A stretch of DNA of 28,155 nucleotides from a virus (IMGVR_UViG_2547132281_000009:1-28155), one strand, 5' to 3'. Positions 1 to 27,147 are shown, numbered from the stretch's first letter. Numbers and translations are program-made. The notes: generated by a model not told the origin, from the sequence alone.

Positions 1-870
1 TTGCTTGACAGCTTCACCGAAAAAATGGCGCGAAATTTTCATTTCGAATATGGAACAGCGCGCGCCTGGGGATCTTTTGGCTATGCTATTGGCGCGTTCT
101 TTGCCGGCATATTTTTTAGTATCAGTCCCCATATCAACTTCTGGTTGGTCTCGCTATTTGGCGCTGTATTTATGATGATCAACATGTGTTTTAAAGATAA
201 GGATCACCAGTGCGTAGCGGCGGATGCGGGAGGGGTAAAAAAAGAGGATTTTATCGCAGTTTTCAAGGATCGAAACTTCTGGGTTTTCGTCATATTTATT
301 GTGGGGACGTGGTCTTTCTATAACATTTTTGATCAACAACTTTTTCCTGTCTTTTATGCAGGTTTATTCGAATCACACGATGTAGGAACGCGCCTGTATG
401 GTTATCTCAACTCATTCCAGGTGGTACTCGAAGCGCTATGCATGGCGATTATTCCTTTCTTTGTGAATCGGGTAGGGCCAAAAAATGCATTACTTATCGG
501 TGTTGTGATTATGGCGTTGCGTATCCTTTCCTGCGCGCTGTTCGTTAACCCCTGGATTATTTCATTAGTGAAGCTGTTACATGCTATTGAGGTTCCACTT
601 TGTGTCATATCCGTCTTCAAATACAGCGTGGCAAATTTTGATAAGCGCCTGTCGTCGACGATCTTTCTGATTGGTTTTCAAATTGCCAGTTCGCTTGGGA
701 TTGTGCTGCTTTCAACGCCGACTGGGATACTCTTTGACCACGCAGGCTACCAGACAGTTTTCTTCGCAATTTCGGGTATTGTCTGCCTGATGTTGCTATT
801 TGGCATTTTCTTCTTGAGTAAAAAACGCGAGCAAATAGTTATGGAAACGCCTGTACCTTCAGCAATATAG
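1..870 (+). CDS. cscB: Sucrose permease CscB (LacY-family MFS oligosaccharide:H+ symporter), C-terminal 289 aa; 5' end lies outside the window
   Basis: ORF runs from the window edge to a TAG at 868-870; translation is multi-TM and LacY-like (DSFTEKMARNFHFEYGTARAWGSFGYAIGAFFAG...), matching CscB as I recall it; csc genes are known to sit next to argW in sucrose-positive E. coli. Confidence 0.8.
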   Translation: MLDSFTEKMARNFHFEYGTARAWGSFGYAIGAFFAGIFFSISPHINFWLVSLFGAVFMMINMCFKDKDHQCVAADAGGVKKEDFIAVFKDRNFWVFVIFIVGTWSFYNIFDQQLFPVFYAGLFESHDVGTRLYGYLNSFQVVLEALCMAIIPFFVNRVGPKNALLIGVVIMALRILSCALFVNPWIISLVKLLHAIEVPLCVISVFKYSVANFDKRLSSTIFLIGFQIASSLGIVLLSTPTGILFDHAGYQTVFFAISGIVCLMLLFGIFFLSKKREQIVMETPVPSAI

Positions 871-4067: not shown

Positions 4068-4547
4068 TTAAATTGCGTGAATAGCGTGACGAGGGAAGGG
4101 GAGAGTTACTGGCTCCTCGTCTGGGTAGATAGGTTTGTTATGTTTGTGCCACTCGACATGACATGACTTGCAGAGCCACATCACATCGGTTGGTTTGCTG
4201 TAGTCGCAGTGGTGCGCCTGTGGTTTACATTCTGATCCGCAGCACTCACATTGTGGTGGTCGGATTAGCTTACCGTCGCGCAAAAAATTACCCACGATGA
4301 TGTGGGCTTTTCTTTTCCATGGGTTGCTCTGAATGAACCGCTTTTTGGCTGCGTTACACCGTTCTCTGCCGCGTTCCGATGATTGATATTCTCTCCTTGC
4401 TGATACTCGATGTGGCAATCCCGCGCGCTCTTTGTCGTATTCAGCCAGGCAAGCCCGGCAAGCGGCAGTTAATCCATCTCTGGATGCTCTTCTGATTTGA
4501 AAGTCCCTTTCTTCCTTCTGTTGATGGCATCTTGAGCAGATTTTCAT
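4068..4547 (-). CDS. HNH-family endonuclease-like protein (159 aa)
   Basis: Multiple CxxC pairs and a C-terminal HH...LC..CH motif typical of the HNH zinc-finger nuclease fold; good Shine-Dalgarno. Confidence 0.6.
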   Translation of the reverse strand: MKICSRCHQQKEERDFQIRRASRDGLTAACRACLAEYDKERAGLPHRVSARREYQSSERGRERCNAAKKRFIQSNPWKRKAHIIVGNFLRDGKLIRPPQCECCGSECKPQAHHCDYSKPTDVMWLCKSCHVEWHKHNKPIYPDEEPVTLPFPRHAIHAI

Positions 4548-4556
4548 ATTCAGCTC

Positions 4557-5030
4557 CTAGAACGGAATATCCGAATCGTCGAAGTTCATAGGTGGTTCGC
4601 TGTGATTCCCCTGCTGCTGAGGTTGCTGTCTTTGTTGCTGACCGTTATTTCGCTGAGGTGAAGACTGTTCATTGCCTCCTTGCTTGCCACCAAGCATTTG
4701 CATGGTTCCACCAACGCCCACGATGACTTCGGTAGTGAACCGATCCTGTCCGCTTTGATCCTGCCATTTTCTTGTCCGCAATTTGCCTTCAAGATAAACC
4801 TCAGAGCCTTTTCGCAGATATTCGCTGGCAATTTCTGCCAGTTTCCCGCTCATTACCACACGGTGCCACTCCGTCTGCTCCTTTTGCTCTCCAGTTTGCT
4901 TATCACGCCATTGTTCTGACGTAGCAACTGTAAGGTTTGCAAATGCCGTTCCTGATGGTGAATATCTGATTTCTGGATCATGCCCAAGGCGACCAATAAT
5001 GATCACCTTATTTACGCCTCTGCTTGCCAT
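4557..5030 (-). CDS. ssb: Single-stranded DNA-binding protein (SSB), phage-encoded
   Basis: N-terminal OB-fold sequence [23 protein letters not shown], Gly/Gln-rich linker and acidic C-terminal tail DDSDIPF are diagnostic of bacterial/phage SSB. Confidence 0.9.
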
Positions 5031-5738
5031 TTATGCCGCCTGTTTTAGCTCGTTAACTCTGATGTTCATTACCTGAACGCATTTAGCCTGCGCCTCCTCG
5101 TTGCCAGCCATTAATTGCCAGTCACGCTGATAACGCTCGATGAGTTTTTTCTTGTCAGTTTCTGTTGACGCATAATCGCTGAAGTCTTTCAGGATTTGTT
5201 CGCAGTCAACCGATGGAGATTTCTGGTTGGTATTTTCTGGTGATGGTTTGTTATCTGATGCTGGGATTGCCCATCCCGGCAGCGATGGAGGGAGCCAGTA
5301 AAATCCTGTTCCATCCTTCAGTTTTGCCCTGTGCCACCCCTGCTTTTTATCGAGAGATGTTTGTGCGAAACCTTCCTCAAGGTTATACAGATACCGACCG
5401 ATTCCCCACTGAACGGCAGCGCGCTTCATTGCACCGGAACGACCACCTTTGACGGCTTCTACCTGCGTGTTTTCAGCAGCATCCCATTTGGTTACCCATT
5501 CGGAATCAATCTTTATTGATATGCCGCATTCAACGCCGCCGTTGTTGGGAATATCGCGGTATTCATTGCGCCATCCTGCTTTGCCGCAAACATCGTCCAG
5601 GCGCTTCATGATTGCCCGGTTCGTGACATAAGCCAGCACCATAGCCCACACCTTGCCATCGCGTGTTTTACCGCTTTGCTGTATTCGCCATTCGATATCT
5701 TCAGGGCTGAATGGCTCATCGAATTTATTCAAATCCAT
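5031..5738 (-). CDS. Single-strand annealing recombinase, Rad52/Erf-like (235 aa)
   Basis: Directly upstream of ssb in the position of lambdoid recombination genes; sequence resembles Rad52/22-type phage recombinases (from memory, not searched). Confidence 0.55.
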   Translation of the reverse strand: MDLNKFDEPFSPEDIEWRIQQSGKTRDGKVWAMVLAYVTNRAIMKRLDDVCGKAGWRNEYRDIPNNGGVECGISIKIDSEWVTKWDAAENTQVEAVKGGRSGAMKRAAVQWGIGRYLYNLEEGFAQTSLDKKQGWHRAKLKDGTGFYWLPPSLPGWAIPASDNKPSPENTNQKSPSVDCEQILKDFSDYASTETDKKKLIERYQRDWQLMAGNEEAQAKCVQVMNIRVNELKQAA

Positions 5739-5837
5739 AATTCACCTCAGAATGGACACGACCCAAGGAAATAACGCTGATTTAATACTTCGACTCGGGA
5801 CAAATTAAGGCATACCCGCATTCCTTCGCGGTCGCCA

Positions 5838-5996
5838 TTATGGCGATACCAGAGAGCTTTCTGCGTGTACATGCGTCTCTGTAACTTGCTCTCCTTCACT
5901 GTGGTTGCAAGTGACATGAATATCTCCTTCGTTACCGATTAAATCTTTCATTTGACGAATGAATTCTTCGTCTGACCAGTTATCTGTAAAACTCAT
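5838..5996 (-). CDS. Small protein in Kil position (52 aa), translationally coupled to cIII-like gene
   Basis: ATG overlaps the TGA of the upstream gene (ATGA); positional analogue of lambda kil. Confidence 0.4.
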   Translation of the reverse strand: MSFTDNWSDEEFIRQMKDLIGNEGDIHVTCNHSEGEQVTETHVHAESSLVSP

Positions 5997-6163
5997 GGAC
6001 GGCCTTGTTGTTTCAAAATATCCCAAAGCTTTTCGAGCAAACTTTTCATTCTTGGTTGTTTAAAGTCCGCTCCGGTTAAAATATTCTTTCGTGAATGCTG
6101 TACCGATAAAATCGGGTTGAAAGGGCGAACCGATGCCGCCCCTGCAATAGCGAACTGTTGCAT
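5993..6163 (-). CDS. CIII-like protease inhibitor (56 aa)
   Basis: Internal ATG at 6163 with AAGGAG Shine-Dalgarno; MQQFAIAG...SLLEKLWDILKQQG resembles lambda CIII (MQYAIAGW...); position between N and the recombination genes. Confidence 0.55.
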   Translation of the reverse strand: MQQFAIAGAASVRPFNPILSVQHSRKNILTGADFKQPRMKSLLEKLWDILKQQGRP

Positions 6164-6226
6164 AGGATGCTCCTTCTGTTTGATTGCATAACGAAAACGC
6201 CTCGAATGAAGCGTTATTGGTATGCA

Positions 6227-6253
6227 TATAAAAAAGCCCTCACACTGGAGGGC
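6227..6253 (-). terminator. Rho-independent terminator (tL-like) between the N-proximal genes and the cIII-like gene
   Basis: Stem gccctc/gagggc with 6-nt loop followed on the minus strand by TTTTTT. Confidence 0.6.
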
Positions 6254-6381
6254 AAAGAAGATTTCCAACAATCAGAACAAGTCTGCTCCTGTTTAATTAC
6301 GAGCGACATTGCTCCGTGTATTCACTCGTTGGAATGAATACACAGTGCAGTGTTTATTCTGTTGTTTGTTCCAAAGTGAAT

Positions 6382-6624
6382 TTAACCAGCAATAAACTCT
6401 TCTGGTAATTTATCAACCAGTTGATGGCTTATTATCAGCCATTTGCCATCCTTCGTTTCGTATGCATATTTCTGGTCTTTTATCATCATGTGTTCGGCTA
6501 CTGCCTTAACTGCCTGTTCTGTGACATCTTCTTTTTTTCCTACCCACATTCCTTTTTCAGTGTTTAATGTTCCTTGAAAAATACGACCGCTTAATGGGCT
6601 TGCGCCCATGGTTTTAATTTTCAT
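6382..6624 (-). CDS. Hypothetical early protein (80 aa)
   Basis: ATG with AAGGTG Shine-Dalgarno; no recognisable motif. Confidence 0.5.
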   Translation of the reverse strand: MKIKTMGASPLSGRIFQGTLNTEKGMWVGKKEDVTEQAVKAVAEHMMIKDQKYAYETKDGKWLIISHQLVDKLPEEFIAG

Positions 6625-6651
6625 ATAGCACCTTAAAAATAAAGGCCACCA

Positions 6652-6903
6652 TCAGGCAGCCTTGTTGTAAATGTTGCAGGTATCAAGTAAGTAATTAGAT
6701 GGAGCGCCATAAATTATGAATTCATCGTTTGTCGGGTCCATCTCCATCTCTTGGCCTATTGCCATTCTTGCGTCAGTGTCATCAGCTGCGAAGCATAAAA
6801 CAGCCCACGCACCCATTGTTTTAAAAAGAACTGCAATTGGCTGTGGTTTTACTGAATTTGCGTTAGCGCGAAAATCATAAATCGCACTTTCATGAAATTC
6901 CAT
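6652..6903 (-). CDS. Hypothetical protein in the ral position (83 aa)
   Basis: ATG with GAGG Shine-Dalgarno, 3 nt after N stop; ends in NKAA like lambda Ral but otherwise unlike Ral. Confidence 0.5.
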   Translation of the reverse strand: MEFHESAIYDFRANANSVKPQPIAVLFKTMGAWAVLCFAADDTDARMAIGQEMEMDPTNDEFIIYGAPSNYLLDTCNIYNKAA

Positions 6904-6906
6904 ATA

Positions 6907-7239
6907 TCACCCCTCATACAGTGGTTTGCTGCCTAATTTCATTTTCTGGCGACCAACACAAGTCAACCCCATTTCACTACGTGGCTTGCTGTACCATGTG
7001 CGCTGATTCTTGCGCTCAATACGTTGCAGGTTGCTTTCAATCTGTTCGTGGTATTCAGCCAGCACTGTAAGGTCTATCGGATTCAGTGCGCTTTCTACTC
7101 GTGATTTCGGTTTGCGATTCAGCGAGAGAATAGGGCGGTTAACTGGTTTTGCGCTTACCCCAACCAACAGGGGATTTGCTGCTTTCCATTGAGCCTGTTT
7201 CTCTGCGCGACGTTCGCGGCGGCGTGTTTGTGCATCCAT
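6907..7239 (-). CDS. N: Antitermination protein N (lambda N-like, 110 aa)
   Basis: Translation begins MDAQTRRRERRAEKQAQWKAANPLLVGVSAKPVNRPILSLNRKPKSRVESALNPIDLTVLAEYH, matching lambda N including the arginine-rich motif; C-terminal ~25 aa differ. Confidence 0.9.
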   Translation of the reverse strand: MDAQTRRRERRAEKQAQWKAANPLLVGVSAKPVNRPILSLNRKPKSRVESALNPIDLTVLAEYHEQIESNLQRIERKNQRTWYSKPRSEMGLTCVGRQKMKLGSKPLYEG

Positions 7240-7482
7240 TTTATTCTCCTTTGAGCAACTTCATCGCTTCATCAATACGTGATTGTGTCCCTGCGTTTGG
7301 CTCCACTTCTTGAATTCGGCGAGCGTCCTCAAGGAGTTTCGCAATCATTTCTTTAAGCGCTTCGTTATTCATGGTCATTCTCCTGTCAGTTAGCTTTGAG
7401 TAACGCGCCGTGATGCTTATCTCCACGGTTGCTGTCTTGCAGCTGCATTTCGCGCTACTCAAAGCCTTCTGCTTTGAATGCT

Positions 7483-7513
7483 GCCCTTCTTCAGGGCTTA
7501 ATTTTTAAGAGCC
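7483..7513 (-). promoter_or_regulatory. nutL site (boxB hairpin GCCCTGAAGAAGGGC and boxA-like GCTCTTA)
   Basis: On the minus strand: ggctcttaaaaattaagccctgaagaagggc, the lambda nutL arrangement. Confidence 0.8.
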
Positions 7514-7553
7514 TCACCTTCAATGGTGGTTAGTGCGTCCTGCTGATGTGCTT

Positions 7554-7616
7554 AGTATCACCGCTAGTGGTATCTGTGTCAACACCGCCAGAGATAATTT
7601 ATCACCGCAGATGGTT
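7554..7616 (-). promoter_or_regulatory. pL promoter with OL1, OL2, OL3 operators
   Basis: Three 17-bp lambda-type operators (tatcaccgctagtggta 7556-7572, caacaccgccagagata 7580-7596, tatcaccgcagatggtt 7600-7616); minus-strand TTGACA (7577-7582), 17 bp, GATACT (7554-7559). Confidence 0.85.
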
Positions 7617-7770
7617 ATCTGTATGTTTTTTATATAGATTTATTTTTTTTGCAGGGGGGGCTTGGGAGGTGATCGAGAGATCTGAATTGCGATGTTTAGT
7701 GAGTTGTATCTATTAATTTTCAAATAAATACAATTGGTTATGTGTTATTGGTTGAAGGGGATCGTGAGGC

Positions 7771-7800
7771 AAAGAAAACCCGGCGCTGAGGCCGGGTTGT
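7771..7800 (-). terminator. Rho-independent terminator ending the cI operon (tImm-like)
   Basis: Stem cccggc/gccggg (7779-7796) with 6-nt loop, followed on the minus strand by TTTTCTTT; sequence matches the lambda terminator distal to rexB as I recall it. Confidence 0.75.
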
Positions 7801-7803
7801 ATA

Positions 7804-8676
7804 TTATTTAATTTCTTTTTCCGGTAAATACATTGTCATTTGAACAGGTTTCTTTCCATAGTGTTGAGCAACTCGACTTCTTAGCTCATGCATGGTGTCG
7901 CATGTTTTTGCGACCCCAATAACCTCCCAGCACCTTGATACAAGCTGCCTTACACCTAGGTTCTCGGTTAACTGTCTATGCCAGTGAACTCCTGCCGCAG
8001 GCTTGTTTTCTTTAAGATATTTAGCCACATCTTCGTCAAGAGTGTCATAAATTAACTCTATAACTAATTTCCCCCACCATTTGGGCCTTGATTGCAATGG
8101 GGTACTCCATCCTGTCAATCTACCAAATTCTTCCCATAACTCATCAGGAAATGTTTTTTCCCATGCTCTTAGTTCCTCAGCGATGAACGCCCTGAGTTTT
8201 ACTTGGAGAGCATCCTCTGCGCGCTCATACTGATACCCAGTAGCCTCATCAATTAGAGCATCTAACCCAGTCCTGGTTAAACCTGCTGTTAATACAGCAC
8301 ATTTAATTGCTATTTCTCGCTGTCTATCTGTCAATGGCGCGCCTTTGTATAGCGCCTGTACATAGCCGCGACAAATCAATTCAAATTGCTCAGTCTTAAG
8401 TCCTTGGCTCTTAAATTGGGTTCCTGGTATGGAAAACTCTATGAGTTCGGCCAGGACTAAGTCTTTGTCTATAAAGCCATTAAGTGAGCTAACGCCAATA
8501 AATTTAGCCAGGTCTCCTGACTCCGCATTGGCAATTGCTTTTACAGTTGCTCGCAAAGCTATAACACGATGTCCAGTGTCAAGCACATAGCAATCAATAC
8601 TTTCACCACCTAAGTCGATCTTCCCCTTCCATTTTGCGAATGGGGATGGTAATTGCTGTAAATCATCATGTTCCAT
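7804..8676 (-). CDS. Unknown-family protein (~290 aa) in the rexAB slot downstream of cI; candidate exclusion/defence gene
   Basis: Long ORF co-oriented with cI; start most likely the ATG at 8676 (AAGGG upstream, 32 nt after cI stop); the ORF-track start at 8772 would overlap the cI coding sequence by 65 bp; no transmembrane segment; no similarity to RexA/RexB. Confidence 0.6.
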   Translation of the reverse strand: MEHDDLQQLPSPFAKWKGKIDLGGESIDCYVLDTGHRVIALRATVKAIANAESGDLAKFIGVSSLNGFIDKDLVLAELIEFSIPGTQFKSQGLKTEQFELICRGYVQALYKGAPLTDRQREIAIKCAVLTAGLTRTGLDALIDEATGYQYERAEDALQVKLRAFIAEELRAWEKTFPDELWEEFGRLTGWSTPLQSRPKWWGKLVIELIYDTLDEDVAKYLKENKPAAGVHWHRQLTENLGVRQLVSRCWEVIGVAKTCDTMHELRSRVAQHYGKKPVQMTMYLPEKEIK

Positions 8677-8707
8677 TAATTGAATTACCCTTTTTTGCTG
8701 CGTTGAA

Positions 8708-9424
<717 letters not shown>

Positions 9425-9431
9425 TTAAATC

Positions 9432-9497
9432 TATCACCGCAAGGGATAAATATCTAACACCGTGCGTGTTGACTATTTTACCTCTAGCGGTGATAAT
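9432..9497. promoter_or_regulatory. OR3-OR2-OR1 operators with divergent pRM and pR promoters
   Basis: tatcaccgcaagggata (9432-9448), taacaccgtgcgtgttg (9455-9471), tacctctagcggtgata (9479-9495); pR TTGACT (9469-9474), 17 bp, GATAAT (9492-9497); cro Shine-Dalgarno AGGAGG. Confidence 0.9.
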
Positions 9498-9512
9498 GGT
9501 TGCATGTACTAA

Positions 9513-9722
<210 letters not shown>

Positions 9723-9729
9723 ATAACCA

Positions 9730-9761
9730 CGCTCTTACACATCCCAGCCCTGAAAAAGGGC
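9730..9761 (+). promoter_or_regulatory. nutR site (boxA CGCTCTTA, boxB GCCCTGAAAAAGGGC), followed by the tR1 region
   Basis: cgctcttacacatcccagccctgaaaaagggc immediately after the cro stop, as in lambda. Confidence 0.85.
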
Positions 9762-9840
9762 ATCAAATTAAACCACACCTATGGTGTATGCATTTATTTG
9801 CATACATTCAATCAATTGTTATCTAAGGAAATACTTACAT

Positions 9841-10134
9841 ATGGTTCGTGCAAACAAACGCAACGAGGCTCTACGAATCGAGAGTGCGTTGCTTAACAAA
9901 ATCGCAATGCTTGGAACTGAGAAGACAGCGGAAGCTGTGGGAGTTGATAAGTCGCAGATCAGCAGGTGGAAGAGGGACTGGATTCCAAAGTTCTCAATGC
10001 TGCTTGCTGTTCTTGAATGGGGTGTCGTTGACGACGACATGGCTCGATTGGCACGACAAGTTGCAGCGATTCTCACCAATAAAAAACGCCCGGCGGCAAC
10101 CGAGCGTTCTGAACAAATCCAGATGGAATTCTGA
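9841..10134 (+). CDS. cII: CII transcriptional activator (lambda CII-like, 97 aa)
   Basis: [73 protein letters not shown]... matches lambda CII; the ORF-track N-terminal extension from 9781 is upstream read-through. Confidence 0.95.
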
Positions 10135-10166
10135 GGTCATTACTGGATCAATCCACAGGAGTCATT

Positions 10167-10313
10167 ATGACAAAACAACTCAGTCCTTACCAGGACAAAA
10201 TTCACAAACACATACTACGTGATCGCTTCCTGTCCAGCTTCAAGCAGCCTGGTCGATTCCGGGCTGAGTTGGAAAAAGTGAAGCTGATGCAGAAGGAGAA
10301 AGGTCATGAGTAA
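10167..10313 (+). pseudogene. Truncated 48-codon ORF at the position of the replication-initiator (O-like) gene; probable remnant at a deletion junction
   Basis: Starts with the lambda O-type initiation context aggagtcattATGACAAA right after cII, then stops after 48 codons; gp10 follows 113 bp later. Confidence 0.3.
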
Positions 10314-10426
10314 CATATCTAATCTATCCAAACCGTATGCCTGTTGGTAGCGGTAACCAGTTGGCGAAGTGGAACGGTTGGAATTACTTCCACCGGAAGG
10401 AACCTTGCGATAACGGGAGCGAATAA

Positions 10427-11845
10427 ATGCCGATTCAGCAACTTCCGCTTATGAAAGGTGTCGGCAAAGACTTTCGAAACGCCGACTATATCGACTATCT
10501 GCCAGTGAATATGTTGGCTACACCCAAAGAAATCCTGAACAGCAGCGGATATCTTCGCTCATTCCCGGGCATTGCCAAACGTTCTGATGTGAACGGAGTA
10601 TCGCGAGGCGTCGAGTACAACATGGCGCAGAATGCTGTTTATCGCGTGTGTGGTGGCAAGCTGTACAAAGGAGAAAGTGAAGTCGGTGACGTCGCCGGAA
10701 GTGGTCGTGTATCAATGGCGCATGGTCGGACATCACAGGCGGTAGGTGTTAATGGTCAACTGGTCGAGTATCGCTATGATGGAACGGTTAAAACCGTCTC
10801 AAACTGGCCTACAGACAGCGGATTCACGCAGTATGAGTTAGGTTCTGTTCGTGACATTACGCGCTTACGCGGGCGTTATGCGTGGTCAAAAGACGGCACT
10901 GATTCATGGTTTATCACTGACCTTGAAGACGAATCGCATCCTGACAGATACAGTGCACAATATCGTGCCGAGTCTCAGCCTGACGGTATTATCGGCATCG
11001 GAACATGGCGAGACTTCATCGTCTGCTTTGGTTCATCGACGATTGAATATTTCTCCCTGACTGGTGCAACCACAGTTGGTGCTGCTTTGTATGTCGCACA
11101 GCCATCGCTGATGGTGCAAAAAGGCATCGCCGGGACTTACTGCAAAACGCCGTTTGCTGATTCCTATGCGTTTATCAGCAATCCGGCAACGGGTGCGCCG
11201 TCTGTATACATTATCGGCTCCGGTCAGGTGTCACCAATCGCCAGCGCGAGCATTGAGAAAATTCTCCGCTCCTACACTGCTGATGAACTGGCTGATGGTG
11301 TGATGGAGTCTCTGCGATTTGATGCGCATGAGCTGCTGATTATCCACCTTCCGCGCCATGTTCTCGTGTACGACGCATCTTCAAGCGCCAATGGTCCGCA
11401 ATGGTGTGTGTTGAAAACTGGCTTGTATGACGATGTGTACCGCGCTATCGACTTCATTTACGAAGGCAATCAGATAACGTGCGGCGATAAGCTGGAATCG
11501 GTTACCGGCAAATTGCAGTTCGATATCAGCAGCCAGTACGACAAGCAACAGGAACACCTGCTGTTTACTCCACTGTTCAAAGCGGATAACGCCAGAGTTT
11601 TCGACCTTGAGGTTGAATCGTCAACTGGCGTTGCGCAGTATGCTGACCGCCTTTTTCTCTCTGCAACCACTGACGGCATCAATTACGGGCGTGAGCAGAT
11701 GATTGAGCAGAATGAACCGTTCGTTTACGACAAACGCGTTTTGTGGAAGCGAGTAGGGCGCATCAGGAAAAATGTCGGCTTCAAATTGCGCGTTATCACG
11801 AAGTCACCTGTCACTCTGTCTGGCTGCCAGATAAGGATTGAGTAA
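10427..11845 (+). CDS. P22 gp10-like tail accessory (head-completion/tail hub) protein, 472 aa
   Basis: [48 protein letters not shown]... matches P22 gp10 over its length and size (from memory). Confidence 0.85.
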
Positions 11846-20556: not shown

Positions 20557-20958
20557 GTGGGAACCAAAGTGTCAGATATGCAGAAAAATGTGACTCCCGG
20601 CAGGCGAAAAGGCTGCCCTAATTATCCTCCCGAATTTAAACAGCAGCTCGTTGCTGCCTCCTGTGAACCCGGGATATCCATCTCAAAACTTGCTCTTGAA
20701 AATGGCATTAACGCCAATCTGTTGTTCAAATGGCGACAACAATGGCGCGAGGGAAAGCTGCTATTACCTTCTTCAGAGAGCCCCCAGCTACTTCCTGTGA
20801 CTCTCGATGCAGCTGCCGAACAGCCAGAATCGCTCGCAGAGGACCCGGAAACCCTCAGTATCAGCTGTGAGGTAACGTTCCGGCACGGGACGCTCCGCTT
20901 CAATGGCAATGTCAGCGAAAAGCTCCTGACTCTGCTGATACAGGAACTGAAGCGATGA
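20557..20958 (+). CDS. IS66-family accessory protein TnpA (orf1)
   Basis: First ORF of the IS; typical IS66 orfA sequence. Confidence 0.8.
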   Translation: MGTKVSDMQKNVTPGRRKGCPNYPPEFKQQLVAASCEPGISISKLALENGINANLLFKWRQQWREGKLLLPSSESPQLLPVTLDAAAEQPESLAEDPETLSISCEVTFRHGTLRFNGNVSEKLLTLLIQELKR

Positions 20959-21302
20959 TCCCGTTACCTTCCGGGACCAAAATTTGGCTGGTTGCCGGTA
21001 TCACCGATATGAGAAATGGCTTCAACGGCCTGGCTGCGAAAGTACAAACGGCGCTGAAAGACGATCCCATGTCCGGCCATGTTTTCATTTTCCGGGGCCG
21101 CAGCGGCAGTCAGGTTAAACTGCTGTGGTCCACCGGTGACGGACTGTGCCTCCTGACCAAACGGCTGGAGCGTGGGCGCTTCGCCTGGCCGTCAGCCCGT
21201 GATGGCAAAGTGTTCCTTACGCAGGCGCAGCTGGCGATGCTGCTGGAAGGTATCGACTGGCGACAGCCCAAGCGGTTGCTGACCTCCCTGACCATGCTGT
21301 AA
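20955..21302 (+). CDS. IS66-family accessory protein TnpB (orf2)
   Basis: Overlaps the orf1 stop (ATGA); [31 protein letters not shown] is the conserved IS66 orf2 N-terminus. Confidence 0.85.
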
Positions 21303-21351
21303 ATCTCTTTATCCTGGTTGTCACAGAATAAGCCCGGTAAAATACGGGCTT

Positions 21352-22890
21352 ATGAACGACATCTCTTCTGACGACATCTTCCTGCTGAAACAGCGCCTGG
21401 CCGAACAGGAAGCGCTGATCCACGCCCTGCAGGAAAAGCTGAGCAACCGGGAGCGCGAAATAGACCATCTGCAGGCGCAGCTGGATAAACTCCGCCGGAT
21501 GAACTTCGGCAGTCGTTCCGAAAAAGTCTCCCGCCGTATCGCACAAATGGAAGCCGATCTGAACCGGCTTCAGAAAGAGAGCGATACGCTGACTGGTAGG
21601 GTGTATGACCCGGCTGTACAGCGTCCGTTGCGTCAGACCCGCACCCGTAAGCCGTTCCCTGAATCACTACCCCGTGACGAAAAGCGACTGTTGCCTGCGG
21701 CGCCGTGCTGCCCGAACTGCGGCGGTTCACTGAGCTATCTGGGCGAGGATACCGCCGAACAGCTGGAGTTGATGCGTAGTGCCTTCCGGGTTATCCGGAC
21801 GGTACGGGAAAAACATGCCTGTACTCAGTGCGATGCCATCGTGCAGGCACCTGCACCTTCGCGGCCCATCGAGCGGGGTATCGCCGGACCGGGGCTGCTG
21901 GCCCGCGTGCTGACCTCGAAGTATGCAGAGCACACCCCGCTGTATCGCCAGTCAGAAATATACGGCCGGCAAGGTGTGGAGCTGAGCCGTTCACTGCTGT
22001 CGGGCTGGGTGGATGCATGCTGCCGGCTGCTGTCTCCGCTGGAAGAGGCGCTTCATGGCTATGTCATGACTGACGGCAAACTCCATGCCGATGATACCCC
22101 GGTCCAGGTACTGCTGCCGGGTAATAAGAAGACGAAGACCGGGCGGTTGTGGGCGTATGTTCGTGATGACCGCAATGCCGGGTCAGCGTTGGCACCTGCA
22201 GTGTGGTTCGCTTACAGCCCGGACAGAAAAGGCATCCATCCGCAGACTCATCTTGCCTGCTTCAGCGGTGTGCTGCAAGCGGATGCGTACGCCGGGTTCA
22301 ACGAGCTGTATCGCAATGGTGGGATAACGGAAGCTGCCTGCTGGGCTCATGCCCGCCGAAAGATCCACGATGTGCACGTCCGCATCCCGTCAGCACTGAC
22401 GGAAGAAGCCCTGGAGCAGATCGGTCAGTTGTACGCCATAGAGGCGGATATAAGGGGAATGCCGGCAGAGCAGCGGCTTGCTGAACGTCAGCGAAAAACG
22501 AAACCGCTGTTGAAATCCCTGGAAAGCTGGTTGCGTGAAAAGATGAAAACCCTGTCGCGACACTCAGAACTGGCGAAAGCGTTCGCATACGCCCTGAACC
22601 AGTGGCCGGCGCTGACGTACTATGCAGATGATGGCTGGGCTGAGGCGGACAATAACATCGCTGAAAATGCGTTGCGGATGGTCAGTCTGGGCCGCAAAAA
22701 CTACCTGTTCTTCGGTTCGGATCATGGAGGAGAGCGGGGAGCGCTGCTGTACAGCCTGATCGGGACGTGCAAACTGAACGGAGTGGAGCCAGAAAGCTAC
22801 CTCCGCTATGTCCTTGACGTCATAGCCGACTGGCCGATAAACCGGGTCGGCGAACTGCTCCCCTGGCGCGTAGCACTGCCGACTGAATAA
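21352..22890 (+). CDS. IS66-family transposase TnpC (orf3), 512 aa
   Basis: N-terminal leucine-zipper region, CxxC...CxxC zinc motif and C-terminal DDE-type core characteristic of IS66 transposases. Confidence 0.9.
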
Positions 22891-25753: not shown

Positions 25754-26911
25754 TCACTCCACCTTTTCATCAAGCCAGTCCGCCCACCACTGCATCATTT
25801 CTCTGCGCTTATCGAGATACTGAGCATGGTTGTAAATACCGCGCACAGATCCGCCGTTGGCATGTGCCAGCTGCACTTCAATAGCGTCAGCAGGCCATTC
25901 GTGCTCGTTCATAATCGTGCTGAATTCATGCCTGAATCCGTGACCGCTTTCCAGACCTTCATAGCCGATTTGTTTGATCACAAGCAATACCGCGTTCTCG
26001 CAGATTGGCTTCTTCTTATCGTTGCGCCCGGCAAAAACAAACTCTGATACTGGTTTGGTGATTGAGCTTAGCGTAGTGAGAAGTTCAACCACCTGGTCTG
26101 ACATAGGAACAACATGAATCTTGCGGCCCTTCATCACACTGGCGTCGATGGTGATAATCCTGTTTTCAAAATCGACGTTCTTCCATTGCATGGAACGAAG
26201 CTCTTTCGTTCTTAGGGCTGTGTAGCGTAAAACTTTGGTCGCAATGAGCGATACGATGCTTCCTGAAAATGTTGCCAGTGCTTTGTTGAATGCAGGGATC
26301 TGGTCTGCTGGAAGAAACGGGAAGTTCTTCTTGCGGTATCCTTTCATGGCGTCTGCAAGGTCAGGTGCCGGGTTATATTTAGCCCTTCCGGTGACAATAG
26401 CGTAACGGAAAACCTCGCCGCATCTTCTGCGGGCTTTGTTGGCTCGCTCCATTGCACCGCGATCTTCAAATCTGCGGATTACTTCCAACAGTTGCATCGG
26501 CTCAATATCCTGAATTTCAAGGCTGCCGATGATGGGTAAAATGTCGTCATCAAACATTTTGGCAAGTTCAGTTGCATAGCCTACTGACCAGACTTGCTTC
26601 TTGTGCTCGTACCATTCCTTGTAAATCGCACTAAATGAATTGTTGTTAGACGAAGCCTTTTTCGCTTTTACCGGATCGATGCCAACCGAGATGTCTTTCC
26701 TCGCGGTCCATGCTTTATCTCTTGCCTCCTGCAAAGTCATAAGCGGATATTTTCCTACGGTCAGGATTTTCTCCTTACCGTCAATCTTGTAGCGAAGCTG
26801 CCATACCTTTTTCCCGGATACAGGGACATAAAGGTACAGGCCATTACCATCGAGAAGGCGGTATGGTTTTTCTTTCGGCTTTGCTGCTTCAATCTGCTTA
26901 ACGGTGAGCAT
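25754..26911 (-). CDS. Tyrosine integrase, P4 family (IntS-like)
   Basis: N-terminus MLTVKQIEAAKPKEKPYRLLDGNGLYLYV and C-terminal catalytic region (HGFRHEF...LAHANGGSVRGIYNHAQY) match CPS-53 IntS-type integrases; an upstream in-frame ATG at 26947 is an alternative start. Confidence 0.95.
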   Translation of the reverse strand: MLTVKQIEAAKPKEKPYRLLDGNGLYLYVPVSGKKVWQLRYKIDGKEKILTVGKYPLMTLQEARDKAWTARKDISVGIDPVKAKKASSNNNSFSAIYKEWYEHKKQVWSVGYATELAKMFDDDILPIIGSLEIQDIEPMQLLEVIRRFEDRGAMERANKARRRCGEVFRYAIVTGRAKYNPAPDLADAMKGYRKKNFPFLPADQIPAFNKALATFSGSIVSLIATKVLRYTALRTKELRSMQWKNVDFENRIITIDASVMKGRKIHVVPMSDQVVELLTTLSSITKPVSEFVFAGRNDKKKPICENAVLLVIKQIGYEGLESGHGFRHEFSTIMNEHEWPADAIEVQLAHANGGSVRGIYNHAQYLDKRREMMQWWADWLDEKVE

Positions 26912-27070
26912 GGGTAAAAATCCGGTGGGTAAAATTATTTTATCCACTTTTTACCCGTCATGGAGTGCGGCTGTCAACGATCTGACGCGAACCATGACGA
27001 ACCGTGAATATACGGAAGGATTGATATTCAGGGGATTTTGCGGACTGGTACGGATGGGAGCGAACTGATA

Positions 27071-27147
27071 AATGGTGTCCCCTGCAGGAATCGAACCTGC
27101 AATTAGCCCTTAGGAGGGGCTCGTTATATCCATTTAACTAAGAGGAC
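27071..27147 (-). tRNA. argW: tRNA-Arg (anticodon CCT), argW; its 3' end forms the attR core
   Basis: Minus-strand sequence GTCCTCT...CTCCTAA...GGTTCGATTCCTGCAGGGGACACCA with acceptor-stem pairing, CCT anticodon and encoded CCA; ends may be off by 1-2 nt. Confidence 0.9.

What the first reader, a model, noticed from the sequence alone, without database searches (positions are those of the whole stretch)
6382..6903. Non-Ral genes in the ral position of the pL operon
Directly downstream of N are an 83-aa and an 80-aa ORF with good Shine-Dalgarno sequences and no similarity to lambda Ral, although the 83-aa protein ends in NKAA like Ral, suggesting a recombination junction at the gene's 3' end. 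Ral alleviates restriction, and this early-left position commonly hosts anti-restriction or anti-defence genes.
Basis: partly seen in the sequence, partly recalled or inferred. Interest (0 to 1): 0.4.

Follow-up and report, generated by a model that had tools for sequence, protein, structure and literature searches.

The report
Swappable accessory genes behind phage N
Two small, real but uncharacterised phage genes sit where lambda carries its anti-restriction gene ral; they are interchangeable cassettes in a known hypervariable region, and nothing so far shows that either blocks restriction.

Summary
On the minus strand, an 83-aa ORF (6652-6903) starts 3 nt after N, and an 80-aa ORF (6382-6624) follows. 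Neither resembles Ral.

ORF83 belongs to phrog_2471, an orphan family confined to Enterobacterales prophages. It is acidic and under strong purifying selection (dN/dS about 0.08).

ORF80 belongs to Pfam DUF7446. Its model is confident (pLDDT 92) but matches no solved fold. The family is also conserved in virulent Ackermannviridae.

The shared NKAA ending marks a real recombination joint. A 34-nt terminator-like hairpin plus T-run (6635-6668) overlaps the last codons of ral, ORF83 and a third allele, orf184. Its 5' arm encodes K-A-A.

All four combinations of (ral or ORF83) with (DUF7446 cassette present or absent) exist. DUF7446 is a clean 262-nt insertion, and in 32 of 50 other prophages it occupies the first post-N slot itself.

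The anti-restriction idea rests on position alone. A one-residue variant of ORF83 (orf60, Silas et al.) was among 200 phage accessory genes listed for that functional screen and was not reported as a hit. In the MG1655/lambda EcoKI screen only ocr, ral and ardA scored.

Verdict: ordinary accessory cassettes of unknown function, in a region already described.

The parts
7554..7582 (-). pL promoter (TTGACA-17-GATACT), which drives the operon
   Evidence: Promoter scan, 10 of 12 matches, the same hexamers as found in lambda at the equivalent place.
7483..7497 (-). nutL boxB hairpin (GCCCTGAAGAAGGGC on the minus strand)
   Evidence: Hairpin found by the scan. The identical element lies inside lambda's annotated NutL.
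6907..7239 (-). Antiterminator N, a hybrid of lambda N and an alternative C-terminus (...KMKLGSKPLYEG)
   Evidence: Pfam N36. The alignment with lambda, HK106 and an E. coli prophage shows lambda identity up to about 6975 and ORF83-cassette flank after that.
6904..6965 (-). Junction J1: N 3'-end remnant plus Shine-Dalgarno (..GGCAGCAAACCACTNTATTTGAGG..), the upstream boundary of post-N cassettes
   Evidence: Coding in the window but non-coding in HK106 and CFSAN061763, where it follows unrelated N genes. The same motif precedes DUF7446 in 32 of 50 lambdoid contigs and precedes the diverged ORF83 homologues.
6652..6903 (-). ORF83: an acidic 83-aa protein of phrog_2471, the alternative to sieB-ral in the first post-N slot
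   Evidence: pI 4.2 and net charge -7. dN/dS 0.08-0.09. It always follows an N-type gene in Citrobacter, Klebsiella and Enterobacter prophages. It equals orf60 of Silas et al. except for one residue.
6635..6668 (-). Junction J2: terminator-like hairpin (stem 6663..6642) plus T-run; its 5' arm encodes K-A-A-stop
   Evidence: Terminator scan, fold at -13.9 kcal/mol. Annotated as a rho-independent terminator in mEp234. Shared by ral, ORF83 and orf184. Pairing is kept in diverged homologues.
6376..6637 (-). The DUF7446 cassette: a 262-nt block absent from lambda and HK106, bounded by TTT on both sides (placement uncertain by 3 nt)
   Evidence: Four-way alignment. Two-piece megablast matches, 388 nt in the records against 651 nt in the query.
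6382..6624 (-). ORF80: DUF7446 (PF24233, phrog_1578), a small alpha/beta protein
   Evidence: AF2 pLDDT 92. No PDB fold match. Found in 283 phage records, mostly Ackermannviridae.
6358..6375 (-). Junction J3: TTTGGAACAAACAACAGA, the conserved joint downstream of the cassette
   Evidence: Present after the hairpin in lambda and HK106 and after DUF7446 in the window and SE10. In SE10 another gene starts right after it.
6196..6253 (-). Two terminator-like hairpins before cIII
   Evidence: Terminator scan. Near-identical (one or two substitutions) hairpins in lambda. HK106 and mEp234 annotate a terminator at the corresponding position.

Best explanation
The region carries two unrelated, independently mobile accessory-gene cassettes. 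They are stacked in the hypervariable stretch that follows the antiterminator gene N in lambdoid and P22-like phages.

Shown:
- ORF83 fills the first post-N slot, in place of lambda's sieB-ral segment.
- DUF7446 is a separate 262-nt cassette inserted directly behind a terminator-like hairpin.
- The cassettes are bounded by three short conserved joints. J1 is the N 3'-end plus Shine-Dalgarno motif. J2 is the hairpin plus T-run, whose 5' arm encodes the shared K-A-A C-terminus. J3 is TTTGGNAYAAAYAACAGA.
- All four combinations of (ral or ORF83) with (DUF7446 present or absent) occur in nature.
- Both genes encode real proteins under purifying selection.

Inferred:
- The cassettes were shuffled by recombination at these joints.
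- Both genes are transcribed from pL. ORF83 is made together with N, before the hairpin. DUF7446 comes only after N-mediated read-through.
- Their most likely role is a dispensable early function that helps the phage against host immunity or competing elements.
- The target is unknown. For ORF83 it is probably not type I restriction, so neither is a Ral analogue.
For: Anatomy.

Checkerboard: lambda = ral with no cassette; SE10 = ral plus cassette; HK106 = ORF83 with no cassette; window = ORF83 plus cassette.

Joint J2: exact matches of 31 nt or more at the ends of both ral and ORF83 in 70 phage records. A third allele, mEp213 orf184, ends in DKAA within a variant hairpin. Diverged ORF83 homologues keep a hairpin plus T-run across the last codons through pair-preserving changes.

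Joint J1.

Slot occupancy: DUF7446 follows J1 directly in 32 of 50 lambdoid contigs, the ral hairpin in 11 and the ORF83 hairpin in 2. The ORF83 locus is matched in 2210 of 5426 complete E. coli genomes, but the ORF83 + DUF7446 pair occurs in only 11. No record in the phage collection carries the pair.

Selection.

Region: Silas et al. name several high-scoring 'Ral' accessory regions. A neighbouring allele, orf184, triggers the gop-beta-cII abortive-infection system.

Not Ral: plus the screen results.
Against: No direct functional evidence exists for either protein. The counter-defence reading rests on position, early timing, small size and horizontal spread.

The one experimental data point is negative: orf60 has no reported phenotype.

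In Ackermannviridae, DUF7446 lies near the major head gene among unknown genes. That is not an obviously early or anti-defence context.

The hairpin has not been shown to terminate transcription, and its fold z-score is only -1.7.

The prophage in the window is defective, so these copies may never be expressed in a productive cycle.
Confidence: 0.6

Rival explanations
1. ORF83, ORF80 or both are functional analogues of Ral. On this reading they alleviate type I restriction or enhance modification, despite having unrelated sequences.
For: ORF83 occupies the same slot as ral and ends in the same joint. It is acidic, with pI 4.2, as DNA-mimic anti-restriction proteins are. No ral gene lies elsewhere in the window.
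Against: The ORF83 homologue orf60 is on the screen's gene list, yet the MG1655/lambda (EcoKI) screen is noted as hit only by ocr, ral and ardA. There is no sequence or profile similarity to Ral. ORF83's net charge is -7 against -28 for Ocr. DUF7446 often co-occurs with ral, in 11 of 50 contigs, which argues against redundancy between them.
Confidence: 0.07
2. The genes are prophage-borne exclusion or lysogenic-conversion functions, like sieB or rexAB. On this reading they protect the lysogen rather than the infecting phage.
For: In lambda and SE10 the same region carries sieB. The ORF83 locus is present in 41% of complete E. coli genomes. The window's prophage is defective, yet both ORFs remain intact.
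Against: Both genes lie on the pL strand with no credible promoter of their own. The only minus-strand hit near them is a 9-of-12 match inside ORF83, within the number expected by chance. pL is repressed in lysogens. PADLOC gives no meaningful hit. DUF7446 is conserved in strictly virulent Ackermannviridae, which do not form lysogens.
Confidence: 0.1
3. The genes are modulators of phage development or host physiology, in the way cIII and Kil are. One version has ORF83 working with N. On this reading they have no link to host immunity.
For: ORF83 always sits directly after an N-type gene, whatever the N family. In the window it starts 3 nt after the N stop. The rest of the operon encodes host-directed regulators: cIII and the region where Kil is annotated in related phages.
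Against: ORF83 is replaced by unrelated genes (ral, orf184, DUF7446) or is absent in many closely related phages. It therefore cannot be a required partner of N. The linkage to N is explained by joint J1.
Confidence: 0.15
4. The ORFs are chance or decaying reading frames in a defective prophage.
For: The prophage has lost its replication, lysis and head genes and carries an IS66 element.
Against: dN/dS is about 0.08 for ORF83. For DUF7446, pN is far below pS, and a curated Pfam family and a confident fold exist. Both ORFs are full length and 95-99% identical to copies in viable phages.
Confidence: 0.02

Closest known systems
Lambda Ral (Pfam PF11058), restriction alleviation protein
   Same: Same operon and same general position. 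Its last four residues (NKAA), its stop codon and the downstream hairpin are the same DNA as at the end of ORF83.
   Different: Ral is 66 aa, basic (pI 8.8) and has four Cys. ORF83 is 83 aa, acidic and has two Cys; ORF80 has none. No profile similarity. In lambda, sieB lies between N and ral, whereas ORF83 abuts N. Ral scored in the MG1655/lambda screen and orf60 did not.
orf60 (AFM76313.1, mEp234_034) in the accessory-gene screen of Silas et al. (bioRxiv 10.1101/2023.04.06.535777; Nat Commun 2025, PMC12373910)
   Same: It is the same protein as ORF83 apart from one residue (Y14C), from the same slot behind N in mEp234.
   Different: Nothing structural. It is listed without comment and is never reported as a conditional-lethal or host-sensitising hit. 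I could not confirm that it was well represented in every pooled library; 196 of the 200 genes were finally scored.
orf184 (AFM76385.1, mEp213_045), trigger of the gop-beta-cII abortive-infection system
   Same: It lies in the same accessory region. It is acidic (pI 4.1) and ends in DKAA within a variant of the same hairpin plus T-run.
   Different: It is an unrelated 107-aa sequence (phrog_1372). It sits second after N, behind a 74-aa gene. It has a demonstrated phenotype.
Mosaic boundary ('linker') sequences of lambdoid phages. This concept comes from my own knowledge of the comparative work on HK97, HK022 and related phages; I read no paper on it here.
   Same: Short conserved sequences at gene boundaries flank interchangeable modules. 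J1, J2 and J3 behave exactly this way.
   Different: Here one joint doubles as a terminator-like hairpin that overlaps a coding end. It therefore imposes the same C-terminal tripeptide on three unrelated proteins.
DNA-mimic anti-restriction proteins (Ocr, ArdA)
   Same: They are small, acidic, early-expressed phage proteins, and ORF83 has a similar pI.
   Different: ORF83 has a quarter of Ocr's negative charge. Its low-confidence model mixes strands and helices. There is no sequence match, and it was not a hit where Ocr and ArdA were.

Membership tests
Ral (PF11058) | Sequence match to the Ral family | tested here: not met
   No Pfam hit at E<=1 for either ORF. BLASTP finds only NKAA. hhalign probabilities are 0.5% for ORF83 and 2.5% for ORF80.
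Ral (PF11058) | Four conserved cysteines (CX5CX2CX5C) in a basic protein of about 66 aa | tested here: not met
   The Ral alignment shows C11, C17, C20 and C26 invariant. ORF83 has two Cys in a different arrangement and pI 4.2. ORF80 has no Cys.
Ral (PF11058) | Alleviates type I (EcoKI) restriction when expressed in trans | not testable with these tools
   Literature only. The one-residue variant orf60 was in the gene set, yet the MG1655/lambda hits were ocr, ral and ardA. ORF80 has never been tested.
DUF7446 (PF24233) / phrog_1578 | Full-length match above the curated cut-off | tested here: met
   ORF80 scores 101.1 bits against a cut-off of 24.1, residues 4-72 on profile positions 2-70 of 70. 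phrog_1578 at E 6.6e-41. The invariant S9, G13, G18, T19, W27, K31, D33, V34, T35, E44 and H45 are all present.
phrog_2471 | Full-length match | tested here: met
   ORF83 at E 1.2e-60, residues 1-83 on profile positions 1-83 of 83.
Intrinsic (rho-independent) terminator | G+C-rich hairpin followed directly by a T-run, conserved in relatives | tested here: met
   Nine pairs (five G-C), a 4-nt loop and TATTTTT, folding at -13.9 kcal/mol. The hairpin plus T-run is kept in Citrobacter, Klebsiella and Enterobacter homologues and in mEp213 despite base changes.
Intrinsic (rho-independent) terminator | Terminates transcription, and is read through with N | not testable with these tools
   Only the depositors' annotation in mEp234 is available.
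Phage accessory region in the sense of Silas et al. | Variable gene content between conserved flanks in otherwise related phages | tested here: met
   ral, ORF83, orf184, DUF7446 and other genes alternate between N and cIII behind shared joints. The authors name several top-ranked regions 'Ral'.
Known anti-defence or defence protein families | Sequence or fold match to a characterised member | tested here: not met

The most novel reading that the evidence does not exclude
DUF7446 is a counter-defence or host-takeover protein with a fold not yet seen in solved structures, shared between temperate lambdoid phages and virulent Ackermannviridae. Alternatively or additionally, ORF83 is an inhibitor of a defence other than type I restriction, made together with N before the first terminator-like hairpin. 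Such a target would have been missed in the ECOR screen because the relevant system or phage was not sampled.
Probability: 0.3. Interest if true: 0.55.

Novelty: new member of a known kind. Interest (0 to 1): 0.27.

Why it matters
The post-N region of lambdoid phages is one of the top-scoring accessory regions in enterobacterial phages. It has already yielded Ral and a trigger of an abortive-infection system.

The ORF83 locus is matched in about 41% of complete E. coli genomes, including genomes with Shiga-toxin phages. DUF7446 is found in most of the Ackermannviridae records that were hit, a group used in phage therapy and biocontrol. A function for either would therefore apply to many genomes.

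The clearest gain here is mechanistic. A terminator-like hairpin serves as the recombination joint, and it explains why unrelated proteins share a C-terminus. The three joints also give a simple recipe for listing every cassette in this slot.

As it stands, though, this is an expected kind of variation in a known hotspot, and no function has been shown.

Tried and rejected
Homology searches
- Pfam, PHROGs, NCBIfam and PADLOC gave only unknown-function families.
- PDB sequence searches found nothing below E 0.09, with single sequences or profiles.
- The 5.8-billion-protein search found 19 clusters for ORF83, all Enterobacterales.
- The exhaustive profile search of 1.84 billion representatives found 7 proteins. 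Five are ORF83-family proteins or fragments. One of the other two (P0083, read) is a long repeat protein whose repeats contain VDVLCFG. P0082 has the same many-stretch pattern. I reject both as summed chance matches to AVLCFA.

Structure
- The AF2 model of ORF83 was poor (pLDDT 54), so I ran no fold search on it.
- The afdb50 library was not available.

Cassette-to-cassette comparison
- hhalign of ORF83 against DUF7446, and of each against Ral, gave no relationship.

Other checks
- Rfam found nothing in 5500-8000.
- Literature searches for DUF7446, PF24233, the phrog ids and the RefSeq accessions found no paper. Searches on anti-defence in the pL operon and on Ackermannviridae transcription found nothing relevant.
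- A formal pair count on the hairpin alignment was abandoned. MAFFT put the 3' arms out of register where loop lengths differ. I relied on the individual folds instead.
- I first suspected that the 322-aa ORF next to cI was the Sf6 gene-33-like ORF of mEp234. It is not.

Full report
**What is in the sequence**

The window carries the early-left (pL) operon of a lambdoid phage on its minus strand. The order is:
- pL at 7582..7554 (TTGACA-17-GATACT);
- the nutL boxB hairpin at 7483-7497;
- a 46-aa ORF;
- N at 6907..7239 (Pfam N36, E 1.6e-26);
- an 83-aa ORF at 6652..6903;
- an 80-aa ORF at 6382..6624;
- two terminator-like hairpins at 6253..6196;
- cIII, small recombination-cofactor genes, a Rad52-type recombinase, SSB and an HNH protein.

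The ORF83 ATG lies 3 nt after the N stop, and GAGGGGTGA spans that stop. ORF80 has AAGGTG 4 nt before its ATG.

**Neither protein is Ral**

Pfam gives no Ral hit at E<=1. BLASTP against lambda Ral finds only the terminal NKAA. Profile-profile comparison with a Ral alignment gives probabilities of 0.5% for ORF83 and 2.5% for ORF80. Ral is basic and has four invariant cysteines. ORF83 is acidic (pI 4.2, net charge -7), and ORF80 is near neutral with no cysteine. No ral gene lies elsewhere in the window.

**What the two proteins are**

ORF83 matches phrog_2471 end to end (E 1e-60, function unknown) and has no Pfam family.

The family is very small. It has 19 clusters among 5.8 billion proteins, all from E. 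coli, Shigella, Enterobacter, Citrobacter or Klebsiella. An exhaustive profile search of 1.84 billion representatives returned 7 proteins. Five of these are ORF83-family proteins or fragments. The other two are long proteins matched in 12 and 43 short stretches. The one I read is a repeat protein, and I treat both as chance.

It is nevertheless a real gene. Against homologues 70-72% identical, dN/dS is 0.08-0.09, with saturated synonymous sites. In those Citrobacter, Klebsiella and Enterobacter prophages it again sits directly after an N-type gene, whichever N family that is. The locus is matched in 2210 of 5426 complete E. coli genomes and in 341 phage records, including many Stx phages, HK106 and mEp234. 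Its AF2 model is poor (pLDDT 54), so no fold inference is possible.

ORF80 is a full-length member of Pfam DUF7446 (101 bits against a cut-off of 24) and of phrog_1578. Its AF2 model is confident (pLDDT 92), with three strands, a helix and a beta-hairpin. The invariant polar residues are S9, T19, T22, K31, D33, T35, E44 and H45.

tblastn finds the family in 283 phage records. Nine are P22-like Salmonella phages at 96-99% identity. Nearly all the rest are 150-160-kb virulent phages of Salmonella, Klebsiella, Escherichia, Dickeya and Serratia at 50-60% identity, listed as Kuttervirus and related Ackermannviridae where I checked. In those phages the gene lies among unknown genes and a homing-endonuclease-like gene near the major head gene.

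**The NKAA ending is a real joint, and it is a hairpin**

A 34-nt block (window 6635-6668) is shared by phages whose upstream gene is ral (lambda, SE10, Sf6 gene 35, BTP1, N7, Sf101) and by phages whose upstream gene is ORF83 (HK106, VT2-Sakai, many Stx phages). A 43-nt query found exact matches of 31 nt or more in 70 records of both kinds.

On the coding strand the block reads AAC AAG GCT GCC TGA TGGTGGCCTT TATTTTT. AAGGCTGCC pairs with GGTGGCCTT, giving nine pairs followed by a T-run. The terminator scan picks it up, it folds at -13.9 kcal/mol, and the mEp234 depositors annotated it as a rho-independent terminator. The last three codons, K-A-A, are therefore the 5' arm of the stem.

Two further observations support this reading. 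First, orf184 of mEp213, a third and unrelated gene in this slot, ends in D-K-A-A within a variant hairpin (AAGGCCG CATAGT CGGCCTT TATTTTT). Second, the diverged ORF83 homologues end in KQAA, KQAV or KAA, and each overlaps its own hairpin plus T-run with pair-preserving base changes. The shared C-terminus is thus a by-product of a conserved RNA or DNA element that also acts as a recombination joint.

**Both genes are cassettes**

A four-way alignment gives a complete checkerboard:

| Phage | Gene before the hairpin | DUF7446 cassette |
|---|---|---|
| lambda | ral | absent |
| SE10 | ral | present |
| HK106 | ORF83 | absent |
| window | ORF83 | present |

The DUF7446 cassette is a clean 262-nt block (6376-6637). 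It lies between the T-run and a second conserved motif, TTTGGNAYAAAYAACAGA (J3, 6358-6375). In SE10, J3 is followed by yet another gene.

Upstream, the roughly 60 nt before ORF83 (J1, 6904-6965) are a diverged copy of the 3' end of lambda N. In the window they are read as the C-terminus of a hybrid N protein. In HK106 and an E. coli prophage the same DNA is non-coding and lies behind unrelated N genes.

I classified 50 lambdoid viral contigs that carry DUF7446:

| What precedes DUF7446 | Contigs |
|---|---|
| J1 directly (the slot ORF83 fills here) | 32 |
| ral hairpin | 11 |
| ORF83 hairpin | 2 |
| variant hairpin | 3 |
| other | 2 |

The ORF83 + DUF7446 pair seen in the window is rare. It occurs in 11 of 5426 E. 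coli genomes and in no record of the phage collection.

**Function**

No search links either protein to a characterised family. What remains is context:
- the genes lie on the pL strand with no promoter of their own, so they should be expressed early;
- they are small and soluble;
- they move horizontally;
- they sit in a region that also holds ral, sieB and orf184.

Silas et al. ranked several 'Ral' accessory regions among the highest-scoring regions in enterobacterial phages. They showed that orf184 triggers the gop-beta-cII abortive-infection system.

Their Supplementary File 3 lists UDP0060, which is AFM76313.1 of mEp234. It differs from the window's ORF83 by one residue, so it was among the 200 genes chosen for the screen. 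It appears in none of their lists of genes with phenotypes, and in neither main text. For MG1655 challenged with lambda, which reads out EcoKI alleviation, their records name only ocr, ral and ardA (AGs 1, 87 and 169) as hits.

This is indirect evidence. I could not check how well orf60 was represented in the pools, and 196 of the 200 genes were finally scored. It is still the only experimental evidence, and it argues against a Ral-like role. DUF7446 was not in their gene set: searches of the supplements for its motifs GASPLSG, GASPLTG and AVAEH found nothing.

**Best reading and its limits**

I am confident, at about 0.85, in the evolutionary and anatomical account. That account is two independent cassettes joined at conserved J1, J2 and J3 joints, with the hairpin explaining the shared C-terminus.

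I am much less confident about function. I put roughly 0.35 on a dispensable early function directed at host immunity or competing elements. Type I restriction alleviation is unlikely for ORF83. The overall confidence of 0.6 combines these two.

If the hairpin does terminate, ORF83 would be made with N before antitermination, and DUF7446 only after it. That step is inferred, not shown.

**Context of this copy**

The window is a whole, defective prophage of the Sf6/KplE1 type integrated at argW. It runs from a host LacY-like transporter gene at the left end to an integrase and tRNA-Arg(CCU) at the right. It has lambda-type cI, cro and cII. The match to lambda-type O ends at about 10178, with a P22 gp10-like gene starting at 10427, so the replication, lysis and head genes are missing. 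It also carries an IS66 element. Both ORFs are intact, but here they may never be expressed in a productive cycle.

**Verdict**

The junction idea is confirmed and explained. The anti-restriction interpretation is unsupported and, for ORF83, mildly contradicted. This is an ordinary example of cassette turnover in a known accessory hotspot. It involves two catalogued families of unknown function.

Noticed in passing
window 7241-7381 (-): A 46-aa ORF (phrog_32391, E 4e-34) lies between the nutL boxB hairpin (7483-7497) and N, ending 1 nt before the N start codon. Lambda has no annotated gene in this leader.
   Followed up: partly
window 7804-8772 (-): A P63C-domain protein (Pfam PF10546, E 2.7e-22; phrog_2384) sits between cI and pL, where lambda has rexAB, and is followed by a strong hairpin at 7798..7777. 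The listed start overlaps the end of cI, so the true start is probably a downstream ATG. An Enterobacter prophage (L092) has the same repressor-then-P63C layout. HK106 and mEp234 carry HicAB there instead.
   Followed up: partly
window 6907-6975 (-): N is a hybrid. It is lambda-like for about 84 residues, then switches to the alternative C-terminus carried by the ORF83-cassette flank. A 1-nt length difference relative to HK106 extends it from ...SKPLI to ...SKPLYEG.
   Followed up: yes
window 9300-10430: The match to lambda-type cI-cro-cII-O ends at about 10178, inside O. A P22 gp10-like gene (Pfam Phage_stabilise) starts at 10427. This implies an internal deletion of the replication, nin, lysis and head genes, so the prophage is defective.
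   Followed up: partly
window 20578-22890 (+): An IS66-family element (HTH_Tnp_1 ORF plus DDE_Tnp_IS66 transposase) is inserted among the late genes, upstream of a P22 antirepressor C-domain ORF and the tailspike.
   Followed up: partly
window 25-870 (+) and 25754-27147 (-): The prophage ends look like the Sf6/HK620/KplE1 arrangement as I recall it, with int and xis at opposite ends. A host LacY-like MFS gene lies at the left. The integrase (25754-26911) lies next to tRNA-Arg(CCU) (27073-27147) at the right.
   Followed up: partly
L012, L016, L020, L027, L031, L034, L040, L048, L051, L054 (about 30 nt after DUF7446): A roughly 97-aa gene starting M(E/K)EFKGTxGKW often follows DUF7446 in other prophages and is absent from the window. 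A similar protein (UDP0110) was in the Silas gene set. It could be a partner cassette.
   Followed up: no
proteins P0082 (3126 aa) and P0083 (1357 aa): The ORF83 profile hit these proteins at E 1e-34 and 3e-13, through 43 and 12 short stretches. P0083 is a repeat protein whose repeats contain VDVLCFG. I did not read the P0082 sequence. I regard both as repeat-summed false positives, not homologues.
   Followed up: yes
window 5031-5738 (-), 4557-5030 (-), 4068-4547 (-): The recombination module is a Rad52/Rad22-family annealase plus SSB plus a Cys-rich ORF that I take to be HNH-like (no Pfam hit). It replaces the Erf of HK106 and mEp234 and the Bet/Exo of lambda, another mosaic swap in the same operon.
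   Followed up: partly
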